Assembly (NCBI GenBank): GCA_000092065.1
Contig: CP000583.1
Direction: 5' to 3' (one strand)
Origin: Ostreococcus lucimarinus
Lineage: Eukaryota
Length of the DNA: 64,000 bases
The notes under the pieces are model-generated. The model worked only from the letters and a program-made list of their open reading frames with translations. It was not told the origin of the DNA and made no database searches. This document shows positions 5,939-51,592 of the stretch, one piece after another. The translations under genes were made by a program, and so were the position numbers. Positions within the stretch are counted from its first letter, which is position 1. The number at the start of each line of letters is the position of its first letter.

Positions 5939-6919
5939 CGTCTCCCGTCGCCCCACCCCAGATCGTCGCTCGACCCACGCGCGTCGTCCGACTCCGCGCT
6001 CGCGTCGCGCGAGTCCTCCTCGCCGTTCGCGCCGCGCGTCCGCGCGCGTCGCGTTCGAAGACGTCCCCGCCGCGCCCACCATTTCCGCCCCCATCGCCCG
6101 CATCCCTCCGTCGCTCGCGCTTCCGACGTCCCCGATTCACCGTCGCGTCCTCGCGCGCCGTTCGGTCGCGCGCGCGTCGCGCTTGCCCTCGCCTATCGCG
6201 CGAGCACCGCGTCGATCCCACGAATTCGCGCGTCCGACGACGATTGAATGCGCGGGAAACCTCGTCGTCGTCGCGTCGCGTCGCGCGCGTCCGCGCCCGC
6301 GCGTCGCGGACCCGTCGTCGCGGCGACCGCGATCGTCGCGCGCCTATCGCGCGAGCCGCGAGGCGTCCGCGATCGGCGCGCGCGTCTCTGGCGCGCGCGC
6401 GCGTCGACCGCGGTCGGCACCCGTCGCGATCGTCGGACTGTTTGCCCATAGGAAGGGACGTCCCGACGACGACGCCGTCGTCGGCGCGCGCGCGGCGCGA
6501 CTCGCCGACGCGCGCGCGCCGATCGCCGCATGGAGCCGGCGACGCTGACGGTCCTCGCGATCTGCGCGCTCGCGGGCGCGAAACTGTCCGTCGGGGGGTA
6601 CCTCGCGTGGACGCATCGCGGCGCGTGTCGACGCGAGCGCGGCGGACGCGCGGGCGCGGACGCGCGCGAGGAGGACGCGCGCGAGGACGCGAAGGCGGCG
6701 TGATTCGACGCGCGGGGATCGATCGGGGGCGCGGTCGGTCGGAACGCGCGCGCGCGCGCGCGCGCGGTGTGTTCGCGCTGGGAGTTTCGAGGGACGGTTG
6801 AATTAATCTCGTCGTCGTCGGCGCCGCGAGAAGAGACGCGCGCGCGCGGCGCGAGCGACGGGAGACGATGGGATGGACGGGAAGTTTGAGCGATTTTGCT
6901 ACTAAACGCTCGCTAGAGG

Positions 6920-8770
6920 TCATCGGACGCCGACGGAGACGATGTCCCACACGAGACGCCGACGGAAATATTCCATGTGTTTCTGGGAAAACGCGAGTTC
7001 GGCGCCGGCGGAGAGGTAGTCAGCGTATTTGATCATGAAGACGCCGCAATCGCATCCGTTCTTTTGCAGGGGGATGTCTTTGGGGTAGGCTTCGATCCAC
7101 TCGTCCGGGTCCCAGTCCTCGTTGAGTTTATTCTTTGCCTCGTCGATGAGCCAACGCTTGAGATTCTTCACCGCGACGCCGCTCTCGCCGAGGAGAGAGT
7201 CGTAGTAACTGATGCGCTTCTTGCGCGTATCGATCTCAGCGAGCACCCAGTGTACGGATTGATGAATCGGTACGAAGATTTTTTCGCAGCGCAACACGTC
7301 GTACTTGAGCTTCTTCGGCAACGTCCATCTTCGGACGTTCGAGTAGTCGTACATGTTGCTATCCTGGTACAACTTGTTGATGAAAAAGGTGCTGAAAAAG
7401 TGCACCTTTGGCTGCGTCTCTCCTTTGGGCATACTATTTATGGCGCGTTGAGACAGCAAACCGATGGCAAAATTTGCAACCTCGTCGTTCAACCACGTGC
7501 CCGTCTTCAGAGTGGCAATGTCTTTTCCAGTGGCGTCGAGTGCACCCTGACCGACGAACGAACCGCTCGCTAAGATCTGCGTCGACGGCGCTCGCAACGC
7601 ATCTTGAACAGCTTCGAGCTGAGCCGCGGTGAGCGGCTTGAGGAACTTTTTAGCGGCCTTTTCGCGCTCTCGTCGCCTCTTGTGTTCCTCAGCCTCGACG
7701 CTCAGGCGCGAGAGTTGTTCCTCTAACCCGCTCGAAGTGGACGCAGAGAGCACTTGGTTCAACTTCTCTCGCCTGATTCTCAACGTTTCTTGCATATCAC
7801 GAATTGTTGCCGCATGCTTTGCCGAGAGCGATTCCGTCGGCGCGGTCGCCGCGTCGCGGCGGCTGGCGCGGTCCTTCTCTAAAGCCGCTCTTTGCGAACG
7901 TCCGGCGAGCGTTCCGTTCTCATGAGACGCGATCAACGCCTTGTAGTCTGACAAACCTTTCGGATCGTCCCACTTGCGCGTGTTGACGTACTTTTTGAAC
8001 GCATCTCCGAAAATATTGACCTTTTCGAACCGCTTAAACGTCGCGGCGCCGCCAAATCCTCGCTCGACGTCGCGCCCGTTCGAATCTTCCAAAACGCGCG
8101 CGTCTCTCATCCCACTCTGCGTTGTCCCCATGATGACGTCCCCGTACCCTCTATATACTACAGCACCACCGATCTCACTTCGCACCGACGTCCCACCCGG
8201 TTTGCCAAACGCGCTCGCCGTCCTTCTCCACGCCGCGTCCCGTCTGGCCTCTCGCGCAAACGTTGACCCCGTCCCTCCGCCCTCCAGCGATCGATCGCGC
8301 CCACTCCCCCCCACAACGTCGTCAAACAATCCAAAACGTCTCGGCGGCGTCGAATACGGATGCGCACGCGCGTATGCCACGCGTTCGCTCCAAGGACTCG
8401 TTCGCTGCAGCGCCCCGCCCGGGACGAGCACCGGCGTCGCGTGATCGATCTCTCCCGACCTCGCCGCGGCGCGTCCGTGATCTCGCTCGAGCGCCTCTAG
8501 CGTAGAAATCGTCCTCTCGCCCGTCTGTCGATCGCGCGCGAGCCCGTCGCGGGCGTACGTCGTCGTCAGGGGATCTTTAAACACCGCGCTGCGCGGGTTC
8601 AAGTGGTGCTCGTGACGCGCGAGAATGTCGTCGCGCACGCTACCTCGAGCGCTCGCCGGCGCGTTCTCGTCGAACGGTCGATGCGATCGTGACATTCGCA
8701 CGCGTCGTGCGCGAGCACGGGACGCGGGACGCGCGCAGTGAGCGTCGCGGGACTCGAAGTGTGGGATCAT
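6920..8770 (-). CDS. Ulp1/SENP-type SUMO protease (peptidase C48)
   Basis: The C-terminal catalytic domain has the H...D...C triad context (IHQSVHWVLAEID...YYDSLLG...QKNGCDCGVFMIKYADYL). ATG at 8768-8770 checked; alternative ATG at 8695. The N-terminal half is low-complexity. Confidence 0.8.
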   Translation of the reverse strand: MIPHFESRDAHCARPASRARARRVRMSRSHRPFDENAPASARGSVRDDILARHEHHLNPRSAVFKDPLTTTYARDGLARDRQTGERTISTLEALERDHGRAAARSGEIDHATPVLVPGGALQRTSPWSERVAYARAHPYSTPPRRFGLFDDVVGGSGRDRSLEGGGTGSTFAREARRDAAWRRTASAFGKPGGTSVRSEIGGAVVYRGYGDVIMGTTQSGMRDARVLEDSNGRDVERGFGGAATFKRFEKVNIFGDAFKKYVNTRKWDDPKGLSDYKALIASHENGTLAGRSQRAALEKDRASRRDAATAPTESLSAKHAATIRDMQETLRIRREKLNQVLSASTSSGLEEQLSRLSVEAEEHKRRREREKAAKKFLKPLTAAQLEAVQDALRAPSTQILASGSFVGQGALDATGKDIATLKTGTWLNDEVANFAIGLLSQRAINSMPKGETQPKVHFFSTFFINKLYQDSNMYDYSNVRRWTLPKKLKYDVLRCEKIFVPIHQSVHWVLAEIDTRKKRISYYDSLLGESGVAVKNLKRWLIDEAKNKLNEDWDPDEWIEAYPKDIPLQKNGCDCGVFMIKYADYLSAGAELAFSQKHMEYFRRRLVWDIVSVGVR

Positions 8771-8898: not shown

Positions 8899-11800
8899 TC
8901 ACAGCTTGAGCCTATCGCGAATGAGTTCAGCGATGGAGTCCTCTCCGGGACCGATATCCTTGAAGGCGTCGAGAACTTCAACGATGACGTCTTGGCGGCG
9001 CTTCCACTTCGGGCTTCCCTTGTTCACACCCGTGGTGCTGAAGGTGCGCAAGACATCCACAGCGGCGGATGGCGTGAGCCCAGTCAAGAGAGTCGCGGCG
9101 AGTTTCACATCAGGTTCGGGTTTGTCTTCCGGCTTCTCCACGCCCGGGCGCGCGCCGAACCCGAGGCTCGCACGGCGAACAATGCTCACTTGTTCTTCAA
9201 TCTCCAATCCAGCATAAATAACCTTCGCAGTCTTGACGTTGCGGTTTGCAACGACGCGGAGGATTTCGACCCCGTTGTACACAACGCTTCGCAGGTAGTA
9301 CGGAAGGACGAATTCAGCGACACCAACCATGCGACCGGGCTCGGACATGTTAACCAAACCGATGGCGGCTTCGGCGTCTCCAAGGTTCTCCACCATAATG
9401 TCAATCAACGTCGCAGCACGGGTCAAATCGAGACCCATGAGCGCTTCAGCGCCTCGGGTATCTTTTGCGCGCCACAAAGCAGCTAGGGCTGTCGCCGCAG
9501 CTTCCACGTTGGCTGCTCCTTGAAGGATCAACGTTGCGGCGATCGGATCTTCGTCTTCAGAGAGCTCGAGGACAACCTCTTCGATTTCCTCCTTGGATGC
9601 GCTCTTTTCAAGTCGCTTTTGCAAACGAGATGCACGCTCATCGGTGACTTCGTTGTCCGGCTTTGACGCGGCTTCAGCTTGTTCGGCCGCGCGCTCCGCG
9701 GCGGCTGCAGCGTCCGCCTTTGCCTTTGCCTCAGCGGCTACGGCTTCCGCCTTTGCCTTGGCCTGTGCATCCGCCTTGGTCTTGGCCTGTGCATCCGCCT
9801 TTGCCTTGGCCTCTGCATCCGCCTTTGCCTTGGCCTCTGCATCCGCCTTTGCCTTGGCCTCTGCATCCGCCTTTGCCTTGGCCTCTGCCTCTGCCTTGGC
9901 GTCCGCCTTGGCTTTGGCCTCTGCCTCTGCCTTGGCTTTGGCCTCTGCCTCTGCCTTGGCCTTGGCGTCCGCCTTGGCTTTGGCCTCGGCATCCGCCTTT
10001 GCCTTGGCTTCAGCATCCGCCTTTGCCTTAGCCGCCTTCGCCTCTTCTTCAGCCTTACGCTTCGCTAATTCGGCTTCCTTTCGCTTCGCTTCCTCAGCAG
10101 CCTTCTGAGCTTTCGCAGCCTCCTCCTGCGCCTTGGCTTCCGCCTTGCGACGTTCTTCCGCCTCCTTCTCAGCGCGACGCTTCGCCTCGGCAGCCTCCTT
10201 CTCAGCTTGCTTTCTCTTCTCTTCTTGTTCCTTCTCGAGACGCTTCTTCTCCTCCTCAGCTCGTTTGGCAGCCGCCTTAGCGTCCTCGTCAGCTTTTTTC
10301 TTGGCGCGCGCAGCTTCCTCCTCAGCTTGCTTGGCCTTTGCCGCAGCTTCCTTCTCAGCTTGTTCTTTGGCGCGGCGCTGCTCTTCAGCTTGACGCTTCA
10401 AGTCTTCTGCTTGCTTTTTGGAGTCCTTCTTCGCTGCTTCAGCCGCCTTGCGACGGCTTTCCTCTTCGTCGAGGGCCAATTGCTTGCGTCTTTCCGAAGC
10501 AGCCACGCGCTCGGCCTCCGCCGCTGCAGTTGCAATTCGTAACTCCTCCGCGCGTTCAGCAGCTGCGACGGCTTCAAGACGACGGGATTCTTCGAAGCTG
10601 ATCGTCGAAGATTCTTTGAACAAAACGCCCTCAGTTTCGGTCTGGTTGAAAAATCTACGAGTGTCCTCGTCTTGTCTAGCGGCCCACTCTGAATCTCTCC
10701 TGCTCAAAGTTTCTGCGTTCCATGCAAGACGTCGAGCATCAATTTCAGCGATGATGGCGGCGAGCTCGGCTTCGAGCTGCTTGATACGCATCTCAGCCAC
10801 CTTTCTACGGGCGTCTTCCTCTTCACGTAGAGCTCGCTCGGCACGAACAGCTGCGTCAGCTTCCGCGCAGACAGCAGCGTGACGTCCATCTTCATTGTGA
10901 GTTCTAGTCTGCTCCTCCGTCACGGTGCGTTCAATGGACATCTGGGACTGAGCACGGCGCGCCTTAAACTCTTCGTAGTTGGCCGCTGCAGTCTTTTCGA
11001 GAGCTTGCAATTCGGGAATGAGGATTTGAAGTTGCGACTCCATCTGCGTAATAGTAGCGTTGAGATTCTGCATCATGTTGTCGATAGCAATAGGCGAAGC
11101 AGCGGCAAGTCGCCGCGCATCTTCCTTACGTTGTCTCTCCTCCATCATCTTCCTGAACTCGGCGCGACGAGCTTCCTCGGCGTTGAACAAAGCCTTGATC
11201 TTCGCCGCAAAGTCGTCAATCTCTTTCTGCTTGCGCTCGCACTGCGCGTCAAAATCAGCTCTTCGTTGTTTCTCAGCGGCCTCCTTTTGCGCGATGGCGT
11301 CGGCAGCTTGCTTACGGCGCATCTCCTCTTGAGTCTGTAAGAACTCCTCCTTGGCTTCAAGTTCCGCTCGGAACTTGTCGAGAATGTCCGGCAGTTCATC
11401 ACGGAATCGGTCGCGTCTAGCGTCCTCTTTCGCGATAATATCGTCGTCGATGGCCTTTTGATCGGCAATCTTCTTGTCCATCGCCTTGCGTCGGGCTTCT
11501 TCTTCGGCACGGCGCATGGCTTCGTCGCGCACAAGCTTCTTGAGCTCTTCACGCATTTGCAGCAGCTTGGCGTCTTCTCTCAGGCGCTCGGCCGCATCTT
11601 CCGCGCGAAGACGTTCATCTTCGGCTATAGCTTCTTCACGAGACTTTCTGAACTCCGTGACTCTTTGCGCTTCAGCCTCAAGTGCAGCCTTGGCGGCGGC
11701 ATCAGCTTCGCGTCGACGACGTTCCAAGTCGCGAATGAAATCGTCAATTTCTTGACGCTTTCTGGACACCTCATTCGCATGATCTTCACGTCTGCGTTCT

Positions 11801-14800
11801 TCCTGAGCGCGGAGATCTTCTTCAGCTCTTTGTTTTGCTTGGAGTTCAGCCTTGAAAGCTTCACGACGAGCAAGCTCGGAGGCCCACGCAGCGTCTTCGT
11901 CGGAGCGCATCTTTGTAATGCGTTCTTCCTCGGCGTTGCGACGAGCGTCTTCCTCGGCCATCTTCTTTCTCTCGGCTTCCGCAGCAGCACGAATAACATC
12001 TTCCGCTTCTTTAGCTCTAGCATCTTCTCTGGCGCGACGAGCTTGTTCTTCTGCGTCGCGACGCGCTTGTTCGCGATCCCAATCGGCACGGCGTTGATCT
12101 TCACGAGCTCGAGTGCGTGCCTCGTCTTCTTCGCGACGACGAAGCTCGTCAGCTGCGCGGGCTCGGCGATTCTCCTCCGCAACGATAGCACGCTCGAGCG
12201 CTTCTTTTCGCGTGCGACTCTCGCCTTCTTGCGCGCGACGTTTATTCTCGGCCTCCATACGTAACCGTTGCTCTTGTTGCTCCATGTCCCGCAACTTTTG
12301 CTCTGCGGCGACGCGACGGCGATTTTCAGCTTCCACTCTTTCGGCTTCCTTGCGCACAGCCTCGGCAGCAGCAGCATCGGCTTCACGTCGACGGCGCTCT
12401 TCCTCTTCACGCTTTCTACGCTCTGCTTCAGCAGCAGCCAAAAGGTCTTGCTTGGCTTGTTTACGTCTCGCTTCTTCCGCTTCACGTTGAAGCTGTTCCT
12501 TCGTCTTGAATTCATCCTTGTTGATGATGAAATCGATGCGACGAGAATCTTCAGAAGTGCGTCGCAGACCTTCTTGGGAATTGAAAATCAAATTCGCCTT
12601 GTCTTGTTCTTGCTGACGACGTGTTTCTTCTTCCTTCTTAGCCGCTTCTTCTCGAGCAAGTTCTTCTTCATGACGCTTATTTTCGGCACGACGTTGATCC
12701 TCTTCGGCACGAAGTCGGTTTTCAGCTTCTCGCGCAGCTCGAGCGGCATCGTCGTAAGCACGTCGACGCGCATCTTCGGCTTCTCTTTTGCGGCGTTCAG
12801 CATCCTCAGCGGCCTCAGCTTGCGCCTCGACACGAGCGCGCCGTTGATCTTCATCAGCAATTTTGCGCTTTTCAGCCTCTTCGAGGATCTTGATTTCTTC
12901 AAGTCGAGATTTGTGGTTGGCCTCAGCAGTGGCGATGCGTCGCACCTCTTCAGCGTTGATTCGAGCGATCTCTTGAGCATACTTTTGCCGTCGGTTTTCT
13001 TCCGTATCCTTAAGACGAATACCAAGCTGCTTGAACTCTTCAAGGGCTCGACGCTTAGCGGCGAGATCATCGTCCTCTGCCTTTCGCCGATCGCCTTCTG
13101 CCTTTGCAGCGGCTCGCATCGCAGCTTGCGCGTTCGCGGCGCGAATTTCTTCAGCCTTAAGCGCAGCTTCGATGTCTTGCTTTCTGCGATCAGCGTCATT
13201 TTCGGCAGCGATGCGTCGATCTTTTGTATCGCGTTCGAACTTGACAATCGCTTCCCGGAGAGCGTTGATGGCAGCTTCGGCTTCGCGGCGGCGCTTGTCC
13301 TCGTCGTCGCGACGCTTTGCCTCGTCATCCTCCATTTGTAGAAGCTTACGCGCAGCATCATCACGACGACGTTCCTCCGCAGCTTGACGATCGGCTTCTT
13401 CGCGTTCAAGACGCGCACGTTCATCATCAACTGCGCGTCTGATGTCTTCACGAGCCTGCTCTCGCCGGGTATCCTCCGTTTCCTGGAGACGCCTCTCTTC
13501 TTCAAGCTCACGCGCGTGTTCGTCATCCCACGCTCGTCGTCGAGCTTCTTCAGCGGAACGATCGGCGGCGAGAGCATCTCGCATACGTTGAATTCGAGCC
13601 TCAGCTTCCGCACGACGCCGATTTTCTTCATCTTGCAAACGAGCCTCCTTCTCCAAAAGAGATCGCGTCTCGGTGTCGAATCTTGCTCGAAGATCGGCCT
13701 CGAGTCCCTTCGCCTTCTCAAAGTTATTCTTCGCCAAGTTGATATCTTGTTCACCTTGCGCGCGGCGTAGTTGAATAGAGTTGCGAAGGGCATCGATTTC
13801 CTTTCGGCGGCGTTCGATTTCTTCGCGCAATTTCGCGACTGAAACGGGTGCGCCATCATCGCCACCCATGAGGTCCTCGAGGTCACCCTTTTGTGTCTCA
13901 GTGATGACCTTAGTCGTGATGATCTCTTCCGAGTAAATGGCTTCACATTCGTCGTACAGCCTATCGATCCTCTCCTTCTCGAGTCGACGACGTCTGTTCT
14001 CTTTACGCCGCTCGTTGTTTTCATCCTCGACAGCCTTTCGAAGAGCCTCCTCGGCTTCCTTGCGGCGTCTATCTTCCTCCTTGCGAAGTTTACGCTCGCG
14101 AGCATCGATTTCGTCGTGGTATTCCTCGTCCGGCAATTCTTCACGCCTACGGGCGAGACGCGTGTTCACCTTCTCTCGCGTCGTGATTATCGTCTTCTTC
14201 GTTCGTCCATCAAAGCTGTACGCTACCGATGTTGTGACGGTGCCTGCGGCGTCTCCGATGGATGCCGCGACTTCACCGAGCCTCACCGGCTTCATCTCAA
14301 GCAAGTGAATGAAGAGATAGACGATGAAAGCAATCGCAGCACCGATAATACTTGCGTACTCCATGTTCACTACGTACGTGTAGAACGCGCCAGAACCCGA
14401 GAAGGCACCGGCTTCGATCAAATAGGAAACACCAGAAATGAGTGAAAGCAAGTTGGGCGCCGCCGCGACGGCAATGGCAATCATGGCGCGTGGATTCACG
14501 CCCTTAAAGAACCAATATGGACCCTTAGTATCGCGCGTCTGCATTGCTCGTCGCGATAATTTGCCAGCACGCATAAGCCAGAAGTCACACAAAATCACAC
14601 CGAGCACGGGAGAGACTAACAACGAACCAACGCCAATGATCCACGAGGCAGCGGCGACGACTTGTTGCCACATCAACTGAGCCGGCGCAAAGAGGCCGAC
14701 AGCGCAGGTGATGATGAGCGCTGCTTGCTTGGACGAGATCGTACCACCAAGATAGTTCTTGGTCTTTGCCCACGGAAGCGAGAATTCTTGCATATACTCC

Positions 14801-15783
14801 TGCGGACCAACGACGTTTGCGGCACTGTTCGTCACGAGCGAGGCGATGGCAATGGACGCAAATAAAATCGGCTTCGGCGCTTGCGCCATGGCCGCGGCGA
14901 CGATAGCAAACAAACCGGACAGCAAGGGAAGCCAGAAAAACTGACCAATAGGTGCAGTTCTAGAGCCCTTGATGTGCGCTGTGTAATCTGGATACACGCT
15001 CGCGAGCGTCACCCAAACGCCCACCATAAGCCAAGCGTGCTTCCAGAACTCGTTCGGCAAGGCGCCCGGCATACCCGCGGAAATCAACGAACCGATCGCG
15101 GTCTGAGGAATACCTTGACGCAAAGTCCAAGCGATGAAACCTGCCACGAGCGCTAAGACGGTCTGACCAGACGCGAGAAGTCTCGATGAAGGGACGGTGC
15201 GCAAGGAAATTGCGAGCTGCACCACCCAAAACATCGCGTACGACATCGCTCGCACGACTACATCGCTTTCGATACTCGCGGCGATAAACGTCGTTTTGAA
15301 CAATCCGAACACCGCTTCGCCCCCGACCAAAGTTTGCACGGCGTAGAGCAAGAATCCAAGCGTCGCGCGACAGGCGTCGGTGAACTCCGCCCCCCAAATC
15401 CCGAAACTCGAACGCGCCAGGATCGGCATATTCAGTTCGTACTTCGCCGCGGGGTATCCGATTGCAGAGATAAATGGCATCGCCATCAAAGTACCGAGCG
15501 CTGTCGCCAAACCGAGTTCATACCAGAGCAACGGCGCGAGCGTGTGCAAGTTCCACCGAACGAAACCGTACGGCACCGAATACATCACCGCGCACGTCGC
15601 CAGCGCCGCCCACAGCGAGAGTTCCTTGCCCTTCTCGATCGCATTCTCCTCCGTCGTCGGCGGGATGATCAAATCCTCGTCCCCAGGCGCGACGATGAAC
15701 CCTTCGTCATCCTTATCGTCGTCGCCGGTTTGATCGGCGTACCCCAATCCGACGGCGTTCGCGCGCGTCGACGCCTCCCTCAT
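8899..15783 (-). CDS. giant multi-domain protein: N-terminal NCS1-family permease-like 12-TM domain, about 1,600-aa E/R/K-rich charged coiled coil (single alpha helix-like), (AKAKADAEA)n repeat, C-terminal helical domain
   Basis: Single stop-free track ORF 8899..16101 (2400 aa) with coding-like composition throughout. I choose ATG at 15783 (MREASTRANAVGLGYADQTGDDD...). The membrane domain contains NMPILARSSFGIWGA, reminiscent of the LARSSFGI(Y/F)GS motif of Fur4/Dal4-type NCS1 permeases. The middle is RRKEAEDARRRAYDD...-type E/R/K repeats. The KA repeat lies at about 9740-10030. Confidence 0.55.
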   Translation of the reverse strand: MREASTRANAVGLGYADQTGDDDKDDEGFIVAPGDEDLIIPPTTEENAIEKGKELSLWAALATCAVMYSVPYGFVRWNLHTLAPLLWYELGLATALGTLMAMPFISAIGYPAAKYELNMPILARSSFGIWGAEFTDACRATLGFLLYAVQTLVGGEAVFGLFKTTFIAASIESDVVVRAMSYAMFWVVQLAISLRTVPSSRLLASGQTVLALVAGFIAWTLRQGIPQTAIGSLISAGMPGALPNEFWKHAWLMVGVWVTLASVYPDYTAHIKGSRTAPIGQFFWLPLLSGLFAIVAAAMAQAPKPILFASIAIASLVTNSAANVVGPQEYMQEFSLPWAKTKNYLGGTISSKQAALIITCAVGLFAPAQLMWQQVVAAASWIIGVGSLLVSPVLGVILCDFWLMRAGKLSRRAMQTRDTKGPYWFFKGVNPRAMIAIAVAAAPNLLSLISGVSYLIEAGAFSGSGAFYTYVVNMEYASIIGAAIAFIVYLFIHLLEMKPVRLGEVAASIGDAAGTVTTSVAYSFDGRTKKTIITTREKVNTRLARRREELPDEEYHDEIDARERKLRKEEDRRRKEAEEALRKAVEDENNERRKENRRRRLEKERIDRLYDECEAIYSEEIITTKVITETQKGDLEDLMGGDDGAPVSVAKLREEIERRRKEIDALRNSIQLRRAQGEQDINLAKNNFEKAKGLEADLRARFDTETRSLLEKEARLQDEENRRRAEAEARIQRMRDALAADRSAEEARRRAWDDEHARELEEERRLQETEDTRREQAREDIRRAVDDERARLEREEADRQAAEERRRDDAARKLLQMEDDEAKRRDDEDKRRREAEAAINALREAIVKFERDTKDRRIAAENDADRRKQDIEAALKAEEIRAANAQAAMRAAAKAEGDRRKAEDDDLAAKRRALEEFKQLGIRLKDTEENRRQKYAQEIARINAEEVRRIATAEANHKSRLEEIKILEEAEKRKIADEDQRRARVEAQAEAAEDAERRKREAEDARRRAYDDAARAAREAENRLRAEEDQRRAENKRHEEELAREEAAKKEEETRRQQEQDKANLIFNSQEGLRRTSEDSRRIDFIINKDEFKTKEQLQREAEEARRKQAKQDLLAAAEAERRKREEEERRRREADAAAAEAVRKEAERVEAENRRRVAAEQKLRDMEQQEQRLRMEAENKRRAQEGESRTRKEALERAIVAEENRRARAADELRRREEDEARTRAREDQRRADWDREQARRDAEEQARRAREDARAKEAEDVIRAAAEAERKKMAEEDARRNAEEERITKMRSDEDAAWASELARREAFKAELQAKQRAEEDLRAQEERRREDHANEVSRKRQEIDDFIRDLERRRREADAAAKAALEAEAQRVTEFRKSREEAIAEDERLRAEDAAERLREDAKLLQMREELKKLVRDEAMRRAEEEARRKAMDKKIADQKAIDDDIIAKEDARRDRFRDELPDILDKFRAELEAKEEFLQTQEEMRRKQAADAIAQKEAAEKQRRADFDAQCERKQKEIDDFAAKIKALFNAEEARRAEFRKMMEERQRKEDARRLAAASPIAIDNMMQNLNATITQMESQLQILIPELQALEKTAAANYEEFKARRAQSQMSIERTVTEEQTRTHNEDGRHAAVCAEADAAVRAERALREEEDARRKVAEMRIKQLEAELAAIIAEIDARRLAWNAETLSRRDSEWAARQDEDTRRFFNQTETEGVLFKESSTISFEESRRLEAVAAAERAEELRIATAAAEAERVAASERRKQLALDEEESRRKAAEAAKKDSKKQAEDLKRQAEEQRRAKEQAEKEAAAKAKQAEEEAARAKKKADEDAKAAAKRAEEEKKRLEKEQEEKRKQAEKEAAEAKRRAEKEAEERRKAEAKAQEEAAKAQKAAEEAKRKEAELAKRKAEEEAKAAKAKADAEAKAKADAEAKAKADAKAKAEAEAKAKAEAEAKAKADAKAEAEAKAKADAEAKAKADAEAKAKADAEAKAKADAQAKTKADAQAKAKAEAVAAEAKAKADAAAAAERAAEQAEAASKPDNEVTDERASRLQKRLEKSASKEEIEEVVLELSEDEDPIAATLILQGAANVEAAATALAALWRAKDTRGAEALMGLDLTRAATLIDIMVENLGDAEAAIGLVNMSEPGRMVGVAEFVLPYYLRSVVYNGVEILRVVANRNVKTAKVIYAGLEIEEQVSIVRRASLGFGARPGVEKPEDKPEPDVKLAATLLTGLTPSAAVDVLRTFSTTGVNKGSPKWKRRQDVIVEVLDAFKDIGPGEDSIAELIRDRLKL
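9738..10030 (-). repeat. in-frame coding tandem repeat (27-nt period) encoding (A-K-A-K-A-D-A-E-A)n inside the giant protein
   Basis: Visible as gcctttgccttggcctctgcatccgcc units on the plus strand. Antisense track ORFs 9593..10108, 9663..10031 and 9679..10068 are artefacts of this repeat. Confidence 0.85.
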
Positions 15784-16171
15784 CCCCACGCCTCGCCTTC
15801 GCGTCCCACCCGCGCACGCGGCCTCCCACGCCAATCCACATCGTTTCTTTCCTCCACCGACCACGCGCGCGACGACCGTCGCGCCCCGCGCGCGCGCCCC
15901 GCCCCCCGCCGTTGCCGCATGCGATTGCCCAACGATTGATTTCGCAAATGTCCCGATCGACCCCGCCCGTCGCCCGCTCTCGCGCGCGCCGCTCCGCCGC
16001 TCCGCCGCCGCGCTCGCGGCGGCGCGCAGCGCCATTCGCGCTCGCGCTCGCGACGACTCGCGCGTCCGCGCCACGCACGTCCGCGCGCGCGGCGTTCTCA
16101 CGCGCGCGAAGAGCGAGCGAATTTAAGGGATCGTCGACGAAGATACGACGTCGCGGCGGTTCGCGCGCGTC

Positions 16172-23624: not shown

Positions 23625-24380
23625 TTAGGACATCGAAAAGACGATGTACAGCGTGTAAAGCATCATGCAAGGATACGTCACGATCATGCGTTTGCCCTCC
23701 GACTGCGGCATCGCCTGTATCAACCCCACGCTCGCCTTTCTCGAGCTCCACGTCACGCAGAGCACCGCGAGCGCCTTGCTCAACATCCCAGTTTTCGAAG
23801 GTAAAAACAGCACGATCCCACTGTACCCCACCACGGGCAGCAGCGCGTAGCCTAAAATACTCCCGCACCGGTTCAACCCGATCCCTTCCCCTCCGCCGAT
23901 GATTTGGTTCAACAACCAGTACATCCCGAGCGACGCGAGCGTGCTCCAACCCAAAATGTACCCAAAGTGCAACTTCCCCGCCAGTAAGTTACACGCGCCC
24001 ATGACGAGACAAAACAACAGCGGTCCCGCGAGATCTTCATCCGTGCTATCCTCGACCCTGAACGGATGCATCACACCCATCGTCCGACGATAAATCTGCT
24101 TCGGATCCACGCCGAGTTCCTCGAGCAACGGCACCTCGTCCTCGACGTGCGCGTACGACCCTCCCACGTCGCCGTCGCGCGCCCCGAACCCGAACCCACC
24201 GCCCTGGTGTCCCGAGCCGTGTCCACCACCCCCCCCGTACCCGTGCGAGCCCGAACTCGTCGCTCGCGGCGCGTACGCGTCGTAGTTCGGGTACGCCTGC
24301 GCGCGATTAAAATCCATAAACTGCATGTTCGCGTTCGCGCCCTGCGCGCCCTGCGGCATCGGTCGCGGTATGTCCGCCAT
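23625..24380 (-). CDS. Yip1-domain Rab-GTPase-interacting membrane protein (YIPF5/Yip1-like)
   Basis: Gly-rich N-terminus followed by DEVPLLEELGVDPKQIYRRTMGVMHPFR...DLAGPLLFCLVMGACNLLAGKLHFGYILGWSTLASLGMYWLLN...VTYPCMMLYTLYIVF, which aligns with YIPF5 along its length. ATG at 24380 (MADIPRPMPQG...) checked. Confidence 0.8.
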   Translation of the reverse strand: MADIPRPMPQGAQGANANMQFMDFNRAQAYPNYDAYAPRATSSGSHGYGGGGGHGSGHQGGGFGFGARDGDVGGSYAHVEDEVPLLEELGVDPKQIYRRTMGVMHPFRVEDSTDEDLAGPLLFCLVMGACNLLAGKLHFGYILGWSTLASLGMYWLLNQIIGGGEGIGLNRCGSILGYALLPVVGYSGIVLFLPSKTGMLSKALAVLCVTWSSRKASVGLIQAMPQSEGKRMIVTYPCMMLYTLYIVFSMS

Positions 24381-24587
24381 ATCTCGCCGTTCCGTCGCGC
24401 GCGCGTCCGCGTCGCCCGAGACGCGCGTCGCGGTCGCCCGTCGCGCGTCGCGGTGCGTCGCCAACGGGACGCGGCGCGCGCGTCTCGGGCGACGCGAGTC
24501 TCACACACGGACCACGACGCCCGCGACCGCGCGCGGTCTCCTCGCGACCCGCGCGCGCGTTCTCTTCGCGACGCGCGCGACGCGAAC

Positions 24588-25243
24588 ATGGTGCGTGACC
24601 TCGAGCGAGCGACGAAAGACGACGCGAGCGCGAACGACGCGCGCGCCGGTGGCGCGCGACGGCCGGGACGCGCGTCGGGCGGACGCGCGCGGACGGAACG
24701 ACCGCGGACGAGACGCGGCGATCGCGACGACGCGCGCGCGCGTTCGAGGGCGGTCGCGCGCGATGCGATCGTCGCGCGCGCGGTCGGCGCGCGCGGATGA
24801 AGGGTGGATATCGTGAATTCGACGCCGGCGCGGCGCGCGGCGGCGACGGCGGCGGTGGGAGGGCGACGGGCGGGCGATGGGGGGGCGCGGCGCAAGCCCT
24901 AGAGTCGACGACGGCGCGAACGCGACGCGCGGAGGACTGACCGAGACGTTTTATCGACGCAGCCGTCCAACAAGACTTTCAAGGTGAAGAAGATTTTGGG
25001 GAAGAAGCAAAAGCAAAACCGCCCGCTTCCCCAATGGATCCGCATGCGCACGGGTAACACCATTCGGTACGTACGCGTTTAGGTTTTTTCGCGCGACGAG
25101 CGCCGACGAGTCGCGCGAACGACGCGATCGATGACGCGATTTTGACGACGACGACGCGCGAGTACTGACGATGATGATGTGTTCGTACGCGCAGCTACAA
25201 CGCGAAGCGTCGACACTGGAGACGCACCAAGCTCAACTTGTAA
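24588..25243 (+). CDS. RPL39: 60S ribosomal protein L39e, three exons: 24588..24590 (ATG only), 24963..25066, 25195..25243
   Basis: ATG is followed directly by donor GTGCGT at 24591. Acceptor ...cgacgcag precedes 24963. Exon 2 encodes [35 protein letters not shown] plus 2 nt, with donor GTACGT at 25067. Acceptor gcgcag precedes 25195. Exon 3 encodes (R)[15 protein letters not shown] followed by stop TAA at 25241-25243. The spliced 51-aa product matches eL39 nearly residue for residue. No track ORF covers it. Confidence 0.85.
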
Positions 25244-25924: not shown

Positions 25925-26701
25925 GTCGCGCGTCGCGCGATGCGCGCGATCGCGCGACGCGCGCGCGGCGCCATCCGACGTGGCGGGGCGCGCGCGACGG
26001 ATTCGCGCCGCGCGACTGTTTGCGCATACGACAGAGGGTTCGTCTCGAGTCGCGAACGGTCGACGCACGCGCTCGCGCCGGCGCGCGCGAAACGACGAAT
26101 CGTGACTCGTGACTCGATAAACGACGAATCGTGACTCACGACTCGATGGCCGGCGTCCATACGTACCCCCCGACTCTTGAGTCACGATCGGTCGTTTCAC
26201 AACCCTCGACACGAGGCTCGAATCCGCCGGCGTCGACGTCCGCGCGCGACGCGCGACCGACCGCGCGCGCGACGCGAGATCGCGGCGCGTTCGCGCGACG
26301 AGCGACGCGCTCGAGCGCGTCGACGTCGGCGTCGCGCGCCGAGCGAAAGCGCCGCGCGCGCGCGCGAACGCGGCGACGCGACGGACGCGAATCATCGATC
26401 GCGGGCGTCGATCGCGCGATTCGTCGCGGCGATCGATCGACCGATCGCGGGCGCGGACGCGCGCGAAGACGCGCGGGAGGGCGCACGCGCGGGCGCGGGA
26501 CGCGGGATGCGCGCGGCGGTGACGCGGGCGACGCCGGGGGGGCGCGCGGGCGAGGCGAGCGGGCGGGGGGGAGGGAGGGCGCGCGCGGGGACGCGCGGGA
26601 CGCGGGCGACGCGGGGACGCGCGCGATTCGTGGCGACGCGCACGAGCGGTAGCGTGGGGGACGCGGAAGCGCAGGAGGGAGATGAGCCGGACGTGAACGA
26701 T

Positions 26702-28432
26702 ATGTTCGCGGCGGCGGCGAATGAAATGCAGGCGTCGGAACGATTGGAGCGGGACATTCCGGAGTCGATGACGGTGAGGAAGTCGGCGCCGAGGACGATG
26801 GCGTCGTTCGACGGCGCGGACGAGGATGATGAGGGGAACACTGTGTTGGAAACCGTTCTCGATGTCGCGCGCGATCCGGAGAAGGTCATCAAGGGCGTTG
26901 CCGCGGCGGTGACGTTGGGGACGGCGTACACGGTGGCGAGCGAGCCGGCCTTGGCCGCGGGAGGGGCGGCGGCGGCGCTCCTCGTCATCAAGGTTCTCGA
27001 AGCGTTGGCGAAGGAGGGAGATCAAACTCCGGCTGAATTCCAAGCGTCGCTTAAGAAGGATATCAAACCGTTGATGGAAAAGTTGCCGAAAGATTTCGAC
27101 GCGGAGGCGCTCACGAAGAAGGCGTCGGAGACCGGGGCGAAACTCTTTGAAAGGGCGCAGTCGGTGACTGATTCTTTCGATGAGGTGTTTGGTGGGTTGA
27201 ACTTTGGTGGCGACGCAGACGATGAAGCCGAAGCCGCGGCTTCCAAGTTGCTTGAAATCCGTAGGGCGGACGAGAAGGCTGCGTTGGAAGCGCAAGCCGC
27301 CGAAGACGCCGCGGCGTCGTTCGCCGAAACCGAGGCCAAGGCCAAGGCTGACGCTGCCGCCGCCGCCGCCGCCGCCGCCGCTGAAGCCAAGGCGAAGGCT
27401 GACGCCGAAGCCGCGAAGATTGCCGCCGAAGCCAAGGCGAAGGCTGACGCCGAAGCCAAGGCGAAGGCTGACGCCGAAGCCGCGAAGATTGCCGCCGAAG
27501 CCAAGGCGAAGGCTGATGCCGAAGCCAAGGCGAAGGCTGATGCCGAAGCCAAGGCGAAGGCTGACGCCGAAGCCGCGAAGATTGCCGCCGAAGCCAAGGC
27601 GAAGGCTGACGCCGAAGCCAAGGCGAAGGCTGACGCCGAAGCCAAGGCGAAGGCTGACGCCGAAGCCGCGAAGATTGCCGCCGAAGCCAAGGCGAAGGCT
27701 GATGCCGAAGCCAAGGCGAAGGCTGACGCCGAAGCCAAGGCGAAGGCTGACGCCGAAGCCGCGAAGATTGCCGCCGAAGCCAAGGCGAAGGCTGACGCCG
27801 AAGCCGCGAAGATTGCTGCTGCCAAGGCGAAGGCTGACGCCGAAGCCAAGGCGAAGGCTGATGCCGAAGCTGCGAAGGTTGCCGCTGCCAAGGCAAAGGC
27901 TGATGCCGACGCCGAAGTTAAGGCGAAACGCGCGGCTGAAGCTGAAGCCAAGAAGCGCTCGCAAGAGGAAGCCGAACAGAAGGTTGCGCAACAAGTGATG
28001 GCGGCACAGAAGGTGGCGAAGAAACAAGAAGAGTGGGAGAACTCTTTGCTAAAATTGCAGTACAGCGAGCAGATCATTGAAGATATTCGCGTCGCGGACG
28101 CAAACGCGGTTGAACGCGCGCATGCGCGTCGCCTCGGATTGGATTTCACCCCAGAAGTGGCAAAACAAATGCCAGGAACCGAGTACTCTTGGGGCTCGCA
28201 GACGAACGTCAAACCTGGTGAAGTGATCAGCGCTTTGAACTCCGCCGATGAAGGTTTTGCGTCGTCGAAGAACCGCGCTCGTTCGGCGCTCGGATTGCCG
28301 CAGAAAGACGACCAGCCGGTGGCGGAGAAGCAAGAGCCGTGGTGGGCGACTTTCATAAGAGTTTTCGTGAACATGTTGATCGCTGCCGCCATCGCTGCGT
28401 TCACGTACTTGGTCGTTCGTAGCATGCTGTAA
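26702..28432 (+). CDS. tail-anchored coiled-coil protein with ([11 protein letters not shown] / AEAAKIAA)n repeats and a C-terminal TM helix
   Basis: Coding-like part of track ORF 26177..28432, from ATG 26702 (MFAAAANEMQASERLERDIPESM...). The repeat block is about 27340-27900 (27-nt period with 24-nt variants). The C-terminus WWATFIRVFVNMLIAAAIAAFTYLVVRSML is a terminal TM helix. The 5' 525 nt of the ORF are GC-rich and probably UTR. Confidence 0.6.
   Translation: MFAAAANEMQASERLERDIPESMTVRKSAPRTMASFDGADEDDEGNTVLETVLDVARDPEKVIKGVAAAVTLGTAYTVASEPALAAGGAAAALLVIKVLEALAKEGDQTPAEFQASLKKDIKPLMEKLPKDFDAEALTKKASETGAKLFERAQSVTDSFDEVFGGLNFGGDADDEAEAAASKLLEIRRADEKAALEAQAAEDAAASFAETEAKAKADAAAAAAAAAAEAKAKADAEAAKIAAEAKAKADAEAKAKADAEAAKIAAEAKAKADAEAKAKADAEAKAKADAEAAKIAAEAKAKADAEAKAKADAEAKAKADAEAAKIAAEAKAKADAEAKAKADAEAKAKADAEAAKIAAEAKAKADAEAAKIAAAKAKADAEAKAKADAEAAKVAAAKAKADADAEVKAKRAAEAEAKKRSQEEAEQKVAQQVMAAQKVAKKQEEWENSLLKLQYSEQIIEDIRVADANAVERAHARRLGLDFTPEVAKQMPGTEYSWGSQTNVKPGEVISALNSADEGFASSKNRARSALGLPQKDDQPVAEKQEPWWATFIRVFVNMLIAAAIAAFTYLVVRSML
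27340..27900 (+). repeat. coding tandem repeat array (27-nt units gccgaagccaaggcgaaggctgacgcc, interspersed with 24-nt gccgaagccgcgaagattgccgcc units)
   Basis: Direct repeats visible in the sequence. Antisense track ORFs 25592..28027 (upper part), 27022..28479, 27111..27896 and 27204..27998 are artefacts of the repeat. Confidence 0.85.
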
Positions 28433-51111: not shown

Positions 51112-51592
51112 CTCGCGTCGCGTCGCGCGCGCGTCGTCGTCGTCGCTCGCGTTCGCTCGCGTCGCGCGCGTCTCGCGCGTCTCGCGTCGCGTCGCTCGCG
51201 CGCGCGTCGCGGCGTCGCGATGCGCGGCGCGCGCGTCGCGGCGTCGCCGACGGACGACGGCGGTTACGCCGCGTCACCGGACTGTTTGCCTGTGCGGACA
51301 GACGGATATGGACATACAGTGCGCCGACTGTTTCGCGCGCGCGTCCGCGACGTCCGCGACGCGGGCGCGACGCAGACGTCGGCGCGCGCGCGCGGGGTCG
51401 CACCGTCGCGCGAACGCGCGCGCGGTTTTATCCGCATCGGTTCGCGCGCGCGCGGCGCGCGAAGGCGCGTCGCAGAGGCGCGGAGACGGCGATCGCCGTC
51501 GCCCGCGCGGGACGCGCATCGCGCGGCGCGAACGAAGCGACGACGCCGGCGACGACGCGATCTCGACGGACGCGCGCGCGGAAGCGCGAACG

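What the first reader, a model, noticed from the sequence alone, without database searches (positions are those of the whole stretch)
9738..10030. The same (A-K-A-K-A-D-A-E-A)n nonapeptide repeat is encoded with different codons in two unrelated membrane-anchored proteins 17 kb apart
The giant protein (here) and the tail-anchored protein at 26702-28432 (repeat at 27340-27900) both carry long arrays of [13 protein letters not shown] units with a 27-nt period. At the nucleotide level the units differ: gcagaggccaaggcaaaggcggatgc in one, gccgaagccaaggcgaaggctgacgcc in the other. So this is not a recent DNA duplication; the peptide repeat itself is conserved, or it has converged. The second gene adds a higher-order AEAAKIAA variant. 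An amphipathic Lys/Asp/Glu/Ala helix repeated about 30 to 60 times on two membrane-anchored proteins suggests a shared binding or structural module.
Basis: seen in the sequence. Interest (0 to 1): 0.65.

Follow-up and report, generated by a model that had tools for sequence, protein, structure and literature searches.

The report
Fast-evolving alanine-lysine helical spacer repeats
Two unrelated membrane proteins of the tiny marine alga Ostreococcus lucimarinus both carry tandem copies of the eight-residue unit AKAKADAE, but comparison with sister species shows these are fast-changing, dispensable helical spacers of a well-known kind, not a conserved shared binding module.

Summary
The repeat is real, but it is described inaccurately. 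The unit is an octapeptide, AKAKADAE (24 nt), not a nonapeptide (27 nt). There are about 12 units in the 2400-aa protein P1 and about 21 in the tail-anchored protein P2, not 30-60.

The window is Ostreococcus lucimarinus CCE9901 nuclear DNA. The consensus units of the two arrays differ at 5 of 8 codons, all at third positions. That equals the chance expectation, so there has been no recent duplication.

The "shared conserved module" reading fails on orthologues:
- In five other Ostreococcus lineages and other Mamiellales, P2 has a proline-rich spacer at this position, often (KPEPVEEV)n. Its AKAKADAE array is specific to clade A.
- P1 keeps an Ala/Lys/Asp/Glu array at a fixed position, but the unit drifts: AKAKAEAE, AAAKAKADAD, or degenerate.
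- Both arrays vary in copy number among strains.

As a helix the unit is not amphipathic. Every charge has an opposite charge at i±4, and AlphaFold predicts long helices. The best reading is a single-alpha-helix-like rod or spacer that grows and shrinks by slippage. The same octad array has arisen independently in bacteria and phages and resembles the EAK16 peptide.

One unexplained oddity: the P2 codon string is identical to P1 units of a sister species.

The parts
9746..10033 (-). P1 [16 protein letters not shown] array: 24-nt unit, about 11.8 copies, with a 66-nt higher-order period. Canonical units span 9786-10032.
   Evidence: TRF; unit and codon parse.
8899..16101 (-). P1 ORF, 2400 aa. 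The probable start is Met23, at about 16035. This is the giant membrane protein that carries the first array.
   Evidence: ORF list and translation. Full-length orthologues of 2358-2542 aa occur in five other Ostreococcus lineages.
14404..15531 (-). P1 N-terminal NCS1-type permease domain (aa 191-566), multi-pass membrane.
   Evidence: Pfam PF02133, E=2.3e-28, 99.6 bits against a cutoff of 23.5. Eight hydrophobic segments by hydropathy.
10036..14184 (-). P1 rod of about 1380 aa, rich in Glu/Arg/Ala/Lys (A 19%, E 19%, R 17%). The AK array is its C-terminal continuation.
   Evidence: Translation; composition. AlphaFold models the last about 120 aa of it as one continuous helix, pLDDT 80-88.
8902..9642 (-). 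P1 conserved all-alpha C-terminal domain, about 247 aa.
26507..28432 (+). P2 gene, 641 aa from Met at 26507. The NCBI model starts at 26702. Arg-rich presequence, N-domain with a hydrophobic hairpin, spacer, conserved C-domain, C-terminal transmembrane anchor.
   Evidence: Translation. The NCBI O. lucimarinus protein P0037 is an exact substring. Orthologue alignment shows conservation upstream of the NCBI start.
27379..27870 (+). P2 AKAKADAE array: 24-nt unit, 21.4 copies. The 93-nt higher-order unit is three AKAKADAE plus one AAKIAAE. Degenerate edges reach 27375-27914.
   Evidence: TRF; 15 exact units with near-uniform codons.
27197..28024 (+). Whole P2 spacer, about 276 aa (47% Ala, 18% Lys, 0% Pro), between the conserved motifs SFDEVF and EEWEN. 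It is replaced by Pro-rich sequence in all other lineages.
   Evidence: AlphaFold predicts helices at aa 239-375 and 384-542, pLDDT 70-83.
28361..28417 (+). P2 C-terminal transmembrane tail anchor (VFVNMLIAAAIAAFTYLVV).
   Evidence: Kyte-Doolittle 19-residue mean of 2.34. The segment is conserved in position in all orthologues.

Best explanation
Both arrays are lineage-specific, rapidly evolving low-complexity spacers, not recognition modules.

The octad A-K-A-K-A-D-A-E puts helix-favouring Ala at every odd position. It puts charges at even positions in a ++-- pattern, so each Lys has Asp or Glu four residues away and vice versa. Read as an alpha-helix, this gives two continuous i/i+4 salt-bridge ladders and no hydrophobic face. 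That is the signature of a stiff, soluble, monomeric single-alpha-helix-type rod.

- In P1 the array is the last 80-100 residues of a charged rod of about 1500 residues. The rod connects a multi-pass NCS1-like permease domain to an MgtE-N/FliG-like alpha-helical end domain.
- In P2 the array, with its degenerate helical flanks, is the linker between an N-terminal domain and a conserved juxtamembrane domain next to the tail anchor.
- In the O. lucimarinus lineage this linker replaced a proline-rich extended linker.

At the DNA level the arrays are 24-nt coding minisatellites. They expand, contract and homogenise by replication slippage or unequal exchange, which explains the uniform codons within each array, the different codons between arrays, the higher-order periods of 66 and 93 nt, and the copy-number variation among strains.

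Shown here: sequence pattern, helix prediction, phylogenetic distribution, polymorphism. Inferred: monomeric rod behaviour, spacer function, subcellular location.
For: 1. Unit and pattern. The period is 24 nt. There are 0.48 opposite-charge i/i+4 pairs per residue and no like-charge pairs. The hydrophobic moment at 100 degrees is 0.05.
2. Structure prediction. AlphaFold models both arrays as long helices: P2 aa 239-542 at pLDDT 70-83, and the P1 rod plus array at pLDDT 60-88.
3. P2 spacer is dispensable in sequence.
   - 43 clade-A variants have spacers of 133-282 aa with 4-16 canonical units and 0% Pro.
   - About 110 variants from other lineages have spacers of 67-148 aa with 16-24% Pro and no AK unit. 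In one lineage spacer lengths step by 8 aa, reflecting (KPEPVEEV)n.
   - More distant Mamiellales relatives also have non-AK spacers.
4. P1 array is fixed in position but drifts in sequence.
   - AKAKADAE in the window, L021 and L029; AKAKAEAE in L001; AAAKAKADAD in L036; degenerate in L047.
   - It is absent in the 1013-aa homologues from other genera.
5. Concerted evolution. Codons are nearly uniform within each array and differ between arrays. Between-array codon matches equal the chance expectation.
6. The same octad array arose independently elsewhere.
   - It occurs in bacterial TolA-like and small proteins.
   - It occurs in at least 5 unrelated phage or prophage ORFs.
7. Literature criteria for single alpha-helices. 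[quoted passage not shown]
Against: - Charge density is half that of canonical E/R/K single alpha-helices, because the unit is 50% Ala. There are no i/i+3 pairs.
- The strict Ala/charged alternation gives a very high beta-type moment (0.89 at 180 degrees). It is the pattern of EAK16-II (AEAEAKAK)2. According to PMC2387071, that 16-residue peptide (in both its L- and D-forms) forms beta-sheet assemblies at neutral pH. So the solution structure of a long array is not certain.
- AlphaFold helix predictions for low-complexity charged sequence are not proof. pLDDT is only 60-83, and the whole P2 model is poor (pTM 0.20).
- The localisation and function of both proteins are unknown. P2 has no Pfam or PDB relatives.
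- Some copy-number variation among metagenome-derived proteins may be assembly collapse.
Confidence: 0.68

Rival explanations
1. Paralogous seeding. The P2 array in the O. lucimarinus lineage was copied from a P1-type array by ectopic repair or gene conversion. P1 lies 17 kb away in inverted orientation. Each array then homogenised on its own, so the shared peptide unit reflects common descent, not convergence.
For: - P1's array is older. It is present in all six Ostreococcus lineages examined, while P2's is restricted to clade A.
- The P2 unit GCC AAG GCG AAG GCT GAC GCC GAA matches 8 of 8 codons of P1 units in sister species L021 and 6 of 8 in L029.
- The P2 array against the L021 P1 array is the only array pair with a megablast hit: 87.8% over 246 nt.
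- P(8/8) is 0.0011 under the window's codon usage.
Against: - Against the window's own P1 the match is only 3 of 8 codons, which is chance.
- Four-fold-site identity between the window and L021 is 0.40, near saturation, against 0.79 for L021-L029. Vertical descent from their common ancestor therefore predicts P(8/8) of only about 0.003.
- With array-specific codon bias (GCC and AAG are nearly fixed in all arrays), my rough estimate is that the chance of a full match rises to about 0.01 per comparison. Three comparisons were made.
- Flank similarity is not specific. The best matches of P2's 3' flank in P1 fall in the pre-array region.
- The window's P1 codons resemble those of the more distant L001 and L036. 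Seeding would therefore need a mixed ancestral array and later lineage sorting.
Confidence: 0.3
2. Independent convergence. P2's array arose de novo in clade A by slippage-driven expansion of a short Ala/Lys/Asp/Glu seed. It landed on the same octad as P1 because very few Ala-spaced ++-- octads exist and they are favoured as helical linkers.
For: - Exact (AKAKADAE)n arrays occur in unrelated bacterial proteins.
- They also occur in at least 5 unrelated viral-contig ORF families. Their codon strings match either Ostreococcus type at only 1-4 of 8 codons.
- Only the D/E choices at two positions separate the variants seen in P1 orthologues.
- Codon matches between P1 and P2 in this genome are exactly at chance.
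- The degenerate, non-repetitive helical flanks of the P2 array look like eroded older repeats unique to P2.
Against: - The 8/8 codon identity with a sister species' P1 units is unexpected under independence, with p about 0.001-0.01 per comparison.
- The only other array of this unit in the 64-kb window is 17 kb away on the same chromosome.
- The rest of the genome could not be scanned for other donors.
Confidence: 0.35
3. The identical unit is a functional module shared by the two membrane proteins, for example ionic self-complementary pairing (as in EAK16) that lets P1 and P2 co-assemble or bind a common partner.
For: - Both proteins are membrane-anchored and carry the same unit in the same genome.
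- The ++-- Ala-alternating pattern is that of the self-assembling peptide EAK16-II (PMC7889856; PMC2387071).
- Both proteins have Arg/Ala-rich N-terminal presequences, which is compatible with the same organelle. That is an inference only.
Against: - The sister species L021 and L029 keep AKAKADAE in P1 but have (KPEPVEEV)n in P2. L036, L047, L023 and other Mamiellales also lack it in P2. Any P1-P2 pairing through the array would be a clade-A novelty and is not needed for either protein's conserved function.
- Unit sequence and copy number vary freely.
Confidence: 0.07
4. Recent segmental DNA duplication between the two loci.
For: None beyond the shared peptide unit and a 24-nt period in both arrays.
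Against: - There is no megablast hit. Gapped identity is about 68%, and the longest exact shared word is 14 nt.
- In the best ungapped overlay of the arrays, which is broken by indels, third-position identity is only 0.28.
- 5 of 8 consensus codons differ.
Confidence: 0.01

Closest known systems
Single alpha-helix (SAH, 'ER/K') domains, e.g. myosin-6/10, INCENP, CAF-1 KER, and designed AEEEKKK repeats (PMC5347031, PMC4183817, PMC4571873, PMC10335832)
   Same: - Long, highly charged, predicted helical, with no hydrophobic seam and dense i/i+4 opposite-charge pairs.
- Sits between two functional domains as a spacer or rod.
- In P1 it continues a rod of about 1400 aa that is rich in E/R/K.
   Different: - It is 50% alanine, so it has half the charge density.
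- It uses Asp as well as Glu and has no Arg in the array.
- It is a strict 8-residue tandem repeat, not an irregular E/R/K-rich sequence.
- Monomeric helicity has not been tested.
EAK16-II, (AEAEAKAK)2, the ionic self-complementary peptide taken from yeast zuotin (PMC7889856, PMC2387071)
   Same: - The same alternation of Ala with charged residues, and the same ++-- ('modulus II') charge pattern with an 8-residue period.
- The P1 orthologue in locus L001 carries AKAKAEAE repeats, which is literally the EAK16-II sequence, at least 6 times.
   Different: - The natural arrays are 80-200 residues long and embedded in membrane proteins.
- The window's unit has Asp at position 6.
- EAK16's beta-sheet self-assembly is an in-vitro property of a 16-mer and has not been shown for these proteins.
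TolA domain II (bacterial cell-envelope protein)
   Same: An Ala/Lys/Glu/Asp-rich helical stretch that links a membrane anchor to a distal globular domain. Many of the bacterial proteins that carry AKAKADAE arrays are annotated 'membrane protein involved in colicin uptake / TolA'.
   Different: There is no homology. The NCBIfam TolA model scores 21 and 18 bits against a cutoff of 213, driven by composition. The organism, the topology and the flanking domains all differ.
PEVK-type proline-rich extended linkers
   Same: The orthologous P2 spacers in sister species are (KPEPVEEV)n or other Pro/Glu/Val/Lys-rich tracts. They also have an 8-residue unit and variable copy number. So the AK array occupies a slot that an extended linker normally fills.
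   Different: The chemistry and the predicted conformation are opposite: alpha-helix rather than polyproline-II or disordered.

Membership tests
Single alpha-helix (SAH) domain | [quoted passage not shown] | tested here: met
   50% of residues are charged. There are 0.48 opposite-charge i/i+4 pairs per residue and no like-charge i/i+4 pairs. There are also no i/i+3 pairs, and the density is half that of E4K4.
Single alpha-helix (SAH) domain | No hydrophobic seam, so not a coiled coil or an amphipathic helix | tested here: met
   The hydrophobic moment at 100 degrees is 0.05, against 0.46-0.79 for the controls. The only apolar residue is Ala, apart from Ile in the AAKIAAE variant.
Single alpha-helix (SAH) domain | Adopts a long continuous alpha-helix | tested here: inconclusive
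   AlphaFold predicts helices at P2 aa 239-375 and 384-542 (pLDDT 70-83) and at 2-160 and 174-244 of the P1 fragment (pLDDT 60-88). This is a prediction only.
Single alpha-helix (SAH) domain | Monomeric and helical in solution over a range of salt and pH | not testable with these tools
   Needs circular dichroism, ultracentrifugation or SAXS on recombinant protein.
EAK16-type ionic self-complementary peptide (modulus II) | Alternating hydrophobic (Ala) and charged residues with a ++-- charge pattern | tested here: met
   Read directly from the sequence. The beta-type moment at 180 degrees is 0.89. The reference sequence AEAEAKAKAEAEAKAK is given in PMC7889856.
EAK16-type ionic self-complementary peptide (modulus II) | Spontaneous beta-sheet self-assembly | not testable with these tools
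   This is an in-vitro property. AlphaFold predicts helix instead.
TolA | Sequence membership (NCBIfam NF007065 equivalog) | tested here: not met
   21 bits for P1 and 18 bits for P2, against a cutoff of 213. The match is confined to the Ala/Lys-rich stretch.
NCS1 nucleobase:cation symporter family (P1 N-terminal domain) | Match to Pfam PF02133 above the gathering score | tested here: met
   99.6 bits against 23.5, covering aa 191-566 and 39-429 of 440 profile positions. The TIGR00800 subfamily model scores only 86 bits against a cutoff of 353, so this is a divergent member.
MgtE N-domain / FliG-like helical domain (P1 C-terminal domain) | Fold similarity, plus sequence-family membership | tested here: inconclusive
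Recent segmental duplication | High nucleotide identity between the two copies | tested here: not met
   No megablast hit, about 68% gapped identity, and 3 of 8 consensus codons shared, which is chance.

The most novel reading that the evidence does not exclude
The codon-for-codon identity between the O. lucimarinus P2 unit and the P1 units of a sister species reflects a real transfer of a coding minisatellite. The transfer would run from one gene into an unrelated gene, and possibly between lineages after speciation. It would have swapped a proline-rich extended linker for a self-complementary helical one, so that in clade A the two membrane proteins can now pair through identical EAK16-like arrays.
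Probability: 0.06. Interest if true: 0.6.

Novelty: new member of a known kind. Interest (0 to 1): 0.27.

Why it matters
- It is a clean natural example of linker turnover. In one orthologous tail-anchored protein, the spacer between two invariant motifs is a proline-rich octad repeat in some Ostreococcus species. In O. lucimarinus it is an alanine/lysine helical octad repeat.
- It shows that long natural arrays of the EAK16-type octad exist in an alga, in bacteria and in phages. These run to about 16-21 units, and one orthologue carries the exact EAK16-II sequence. That may interest people who study single alpha-helices or self-assembling peptides.
- It does not reveal a new mechanism or system, and it does not identify a function for either protein.

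Tried and rejected
1. Flank homology between the P2 and P1 arrays. A 'KRAAE' motif follows both arrays. However, Smith-Waterman scans place the best matches of P2's flanks in the pre-array E/K/A-rich rod of P1, not at the array border. Rejected as non-specific.
2. P0049, at '80% identity', looked like a separate species with AKAKAEAE in P2. Its contig (L007) is 95-99% identical to the window and full of frameshifts, so it is a noisy long-read assembly. Rejected.
3. Searching the 5.8-billion-protein database with (AKAKADAE)12 to list other Ostreococcus carriers. Only short bacterial proteins came back, and even P1 and P2 were not recovered. The search is uninformative about how common the repeat is in this proteome.
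4. The ungapped overlay of the two arrays is broken by indels, with a best value of 53%. Unit consensus and gapped blastn were used instead.
5. The P2 AlphaFold model is too poor outside the helix (pTM 0.20) for a fold search. The afdb50 library was unavailable.
6. The PDB sequence search with the repeat hits only the KPKAQAQA tail of mammalian eL29 and other low-complexity tails. These are not homologues.
7. A frameshift origin of the AK spacer from the KPEPVEEV coding sequence was checked by hand in all frames. No frame gives an Ala/Lys pattern. Rejected.
8. Conservation of the physical length of the P2 spacer. The helical spacer is 276 aa, or about 41 nm. The Pro-rich spacers are 63-148 aa, or about 20-46 nm if fully extended. 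The ranges overlap, but the Pro-rich spacers vary more than 2-fold, so no length constraint can be claimed.
Full report
**What is in the window.**
- The window is nuclear DNA of Ostreococcus lucimarinus CCE9901 or a near-identical strain. The NCBI 'predicted protein [Ostreococcus lucimarinus CCE9901]' (P0037, 576 aa) is an exact substring of the protein encoded at 26507-28432.
- The finding's coordinates, 9738-10030, lie in a 2400-codon ORF on the minus strand (8899-16101), here called P1.
- The second array lies in an ORF on the plus strand, here called P2. Its most likely start is the Met at 26507.

**Checking the observation.**
- Tandem Repeats Finder gives a 24-nt period for both arrays. 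P1 at 9746-10033 has 11.8 copies with 86% matches. P2 at 27379-27870 has 21.4 copies.
- P2 also has a 93-nt higher-order unit (5.0 copies, 93% matches). P1 has a 66-nt one.
- The unit is the octapeptide AKAKADAE, not a nonapeptide. P1 has 5 exact units plus [16 protein letters not shown] and AKAKADAQ variants. P2 has 15 exact units interleaved with 7 AAKIAAE-type heptads.
- The copy numbers are therefore about 12 and about 21, not 30-60.
- The codon consensus is GCC AAG GCA AAG GCG GAT GCA GAG in P1 and GCC AAG GCG AAG GCT GAC GCC GAA in P2. All five differences are at third positions.
- There is no megablast hit between the arrays. Gapped blastn identity is about 68%, and the longest shared exact word is 14 nt.
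- With codon usage taken from 18 ORFs of the window, two independent encodings of AKAKADAE should share 3.5 of 8 codons. The observed value is 3, and P(<=3) is 0.51.
- Nucleotide identity therefore sits at the floor set by the shared peptide.
- A six-frame scan finds the motif nowhere else in the 64 kb, apart from one isolated match.

**The two proteins.**
- P1 has an N-terminal NCS1-type permease domain (Pfam PF02133, 99.6 bits, aa 191-566) with at least 8 hydrophobic segments.
- Next comes about 1380 aa of Glu/Arg/Ala/Lys-rich sequence, then the AK array, then a conserved C-terminal domain of about 250 aa.
- P2 has an Arg/Ala/Thr-rich presequence, an N-domain with a hydrophobic hairpin, the motif SFDEVF, and the spacer.
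- After the spacer comes a block that is invariant among the Ostreococcus sequences aligned here (EEWENxLLKLQYSEQIIEDIRVADANAVERAHARRLGLDFTP), and then a C-terminal transmembrane helix.
- Outside the arrays the two proteins share nothing. The best BLASTP E-values are 0.13 and 5.5.
- P2 has no Pfam hit. P1's C-terminal region has no PDB sequence relative.
- An exhaustive HMMER search of 1.84 billion cluster representatives finds only 8 clusters of the P2 family. All have the same architecture and appear to be Mamiellales.

**Orthologues decide the interpretation.**
- I fetched syntenic loci from metagenomes. Some came through the P1 C-domain and P2 hits. Others came from a scan centred on the ribosomal protein SA gene that lies between P1 and P2, so that both arrays fall within one locus.
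- A tree from 903 ungapped P1 columns gives ((window, (L021, L029)), L001), (L036, L047). Homologues of 1013 aa from other genera (L074, L082) form the outgroup.
- P1 keeps an Ala/Lys/Asp/Glu array immediately before its C-domain in all six Ostreococcus lineages, but the unit differs between them.
  - The window, L021, L029 and L008 have AKAKADAE.
  - L001 has AKAKAEAE.
  - L036 and L004 have AAAKAKADAD plus a longer unit.
  - L047 has a degenerate array.
  - Homologues from other genera have no array.
- P2 carries AK units only in clade A. L021/L009 and L029/L010 have (KPEPVEEV)n. L036 has (APKPVEPV)3 in a Pro-rich tract. L047 and L023 have non-repetitive Pro/Ala-rich tracts. Two more distant relatives have Thr/Pro/Val-rich tracts.
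- Across all family members held, 43 clade-A variants have spacers of 133-282 aa with 4-16 canonical units and no proline.
- About 110 non-A variants have spacers of 67-148 aa with 16-24% Pro and no AK unit. In one lineage their lengths step by 8 aa.
- Non-repeat parts of the clade-A variants are nearly identical, while unit number and order differ. Some of that difference may be assembly collapse.
- L029 is the same species as L008 and L010. It has AKAKADAE in P1 and KPEPVEEV in P2.
- A module that had to be shared by both proteins cannot therefore be ancestral or required.

**How the unit most likely works.**
- Read as an alpha-helix, the octad has a hydrophobic moment of 0.05 at 100 degrees. 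Control amphipathic helices give 0.46 and 0.79. It is therefore not amphipathic.
- Every Lys has Asp or Glu at i+4 and every acid has Lys at i+4. That gives 0.48 such pairs per residue and no like-charge pairs. All intervening residues are Ala.
- This meets the published sequence criteria for single alpha-helices: charged, no hydrophobic seam, dense intrahelical salt bridges. Such helices act as semi-rigid spacers or constant-force springs (PMC5347031; PMC4183817).
- AlphaFold predicts helices through both arrays, with pLDDT 70-83 in P2 and 60-88 in P1.
- My preferred reading is a rod or spacer. In P1 it is the distal end of a very long charged rod. In P2 it replaces an extended proline-rich linker.
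- One caveat applies. The strict Ala/charge alternation gives a moment of 0.89 at 180 degrees. It is the pattern of the self-assembling peptide EAK16-II (AEAEAKAKAEAEAKAK, from yeast zuotin; PMC7889856).
- PMC2387071 studied this 16-residue peptide in its D- and L-forms. For the D-form it reports beta-sheet at neutral pH and switching to helix with temperature or pH. The L001 orthologue of P1 repeats the exact EAK16-II octad. The real conformation therefore needs experiment.

**Conserved, converged, or copied?**
- The exact (AKAKADAE)n array exists in unrelated bacterial proteins, several of them annotated TolA-like.
- It also exists in at least five unrelated ORF families on viral contigs. 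Their codon strings match the Ostreococcus types at only 1-4 of 8 codons. Convergence on this octad is therefore demonstrably common.
- Against that, one result was unexpected. The P2 codon string is identical (8 of 8 codons) to P1 units of the sister species L021 and matches 6 of 8 in L029. The P2 array against the L021 P1 array is the only array pair with a megablast hit, at 87.8% over 246 nt.
- Under the window's codon usage P(8/8) is 0.0011. Allowing for the array-specific bias toward GCC and AAG, I estimate roughly 0.01 per comparison, with three comparisons made.
- Four-fold-site identity between the window and L021 is 0.40, essentially saturated, against 0.79 for L021-L029. Simple inheritance from the common ancestor therefore predicts the match hardly better, at about 0.003.
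- The window's own P1 codons resemble those of the more distant L001 and L036.
- Apparent flank similarity, a KRAAE motif after both arrays, is not specific.
- I therefore cannot separate 'seeded from a P1-type unit' from 'independent origin'. I record the coincidence as unexplained. My rough split is 30% seeding and 35% convergence, conditional on the spacer reading.

**Comparison with what is known, and novelty.**
- The closest known things are SAH/ER-K domains, EAK16-type ionic self-complementary sequences, and the Ala/Lys-rich domain II of TolA.
- Membership in TolA is rejected, at 18-21 bits against a cutoff of 213.
- No paper in the searchable library contains 'AKAKADAE'.
- This is a new instance of a known kind of low-complexity helical linker. 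It comes with a clear case of linker replacement between sister species.

**Verdict.** It was right about no recent duplication. It was wrong about unit size, copy number, amphipathicity and a conserved shared module. Interest is low to moderate.

Noticed in passing
window 8899-16101 (-); loci L021, L029, L036, L047, L074, L082: P1 is an unusual fusion of three parts: an NCS1-type permease domain, a charged helical rod of about 1500 aa, and an MgtE-N/FliG-like all-alpha end domain. Ostreococcus orthologues are 2358-2542 aa. Homologues from other genera are only about 1013 aa, so the rod expanded greatly within Ostreococcus.
   Followed up: partly
window 27379-27870 compared with L021:1005-1484 (minus strand): The P2 array unit of O. 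lucimarinus is codon-for-codon identical to P1 array units of a sister species. Synonymous sites between the two species are saturated. The window's own P1 uses different codons. This is unexplained.
   Followed up: partly
proteins P0050-P0120; loci L009, L010, L021, L029: In sister Ostreococcus lineages the P2 spacer is a (KPEPVEEV)n octad array. In one lineage its length varies among environmental variants in steps of 8 aa (68, 84, 92 ... 148). This is a coding minisatellite with the same 24-nt period but a completely different peptide.
   Followed up: partly
window 26507-26701; P0037: The NCBI gene model for P2 starts at MFAAAANEM (26702). Orthologues conserve about 20 residues upstream and all carry an Arg-rich presequence. 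The deposited model is probably truncated at the N-terminus and misses a likely organellar targeting peptide.
   Followed up: partly
L001-L006, L008 (metagenome scaffolds): Short-read scaffolds have runs of N exactly at the P1 array. Prokaryotic gene callers split P1: they call its C-domain as a separate protein of 200-310 aa and call antisense ORFs across the E/R-rich rod. As a result the full-length protein is missing from the protein database.
   Followed up: yes
window 39682-51111 (-): This 3809-aa ORF is orthologous to products with zf-UBR and E3_UbLigase_R4 Pfam hits in L009 and L010. Its G+C dips to 0.45-0.49 over 42-50 kb, against about 0.6 for the rest of the window.
   Followed up: no
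window, e.g. 1001-2000, 6001-7000, 24001-25000, 26001-27000, 51001-52000: Stretches that are intergenic or at 5' gene ends are richer in G+C (0.70-0.73) than coding sequence. They are full of imperfect CGCGCG/GACGCG-type short tandem repeats, which make up most of the 93 TRF rows.
   Followed up: no
L097:2567-2710, L099:1535-1678, L098:1082-1225, L092-L095, L100: Viral-contig ORFs carry 3-7 exact AKAKADAE units. They include predicted lipoproteins with signal peptides and a small protein, P0203-like. These are independent inventions of the same octad array.
   Followed up: partly
PDB chains 6d90_b, 11he_29, 7nfx_b (eL29): The best PDB sequence matches to the repeat are the C-terminal tails of mammalian ribosomal protein eL29. 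These are built from a different 8-residue Ala/Lys repeat, (A/G)KPKAQAQ.
   Followed up: no
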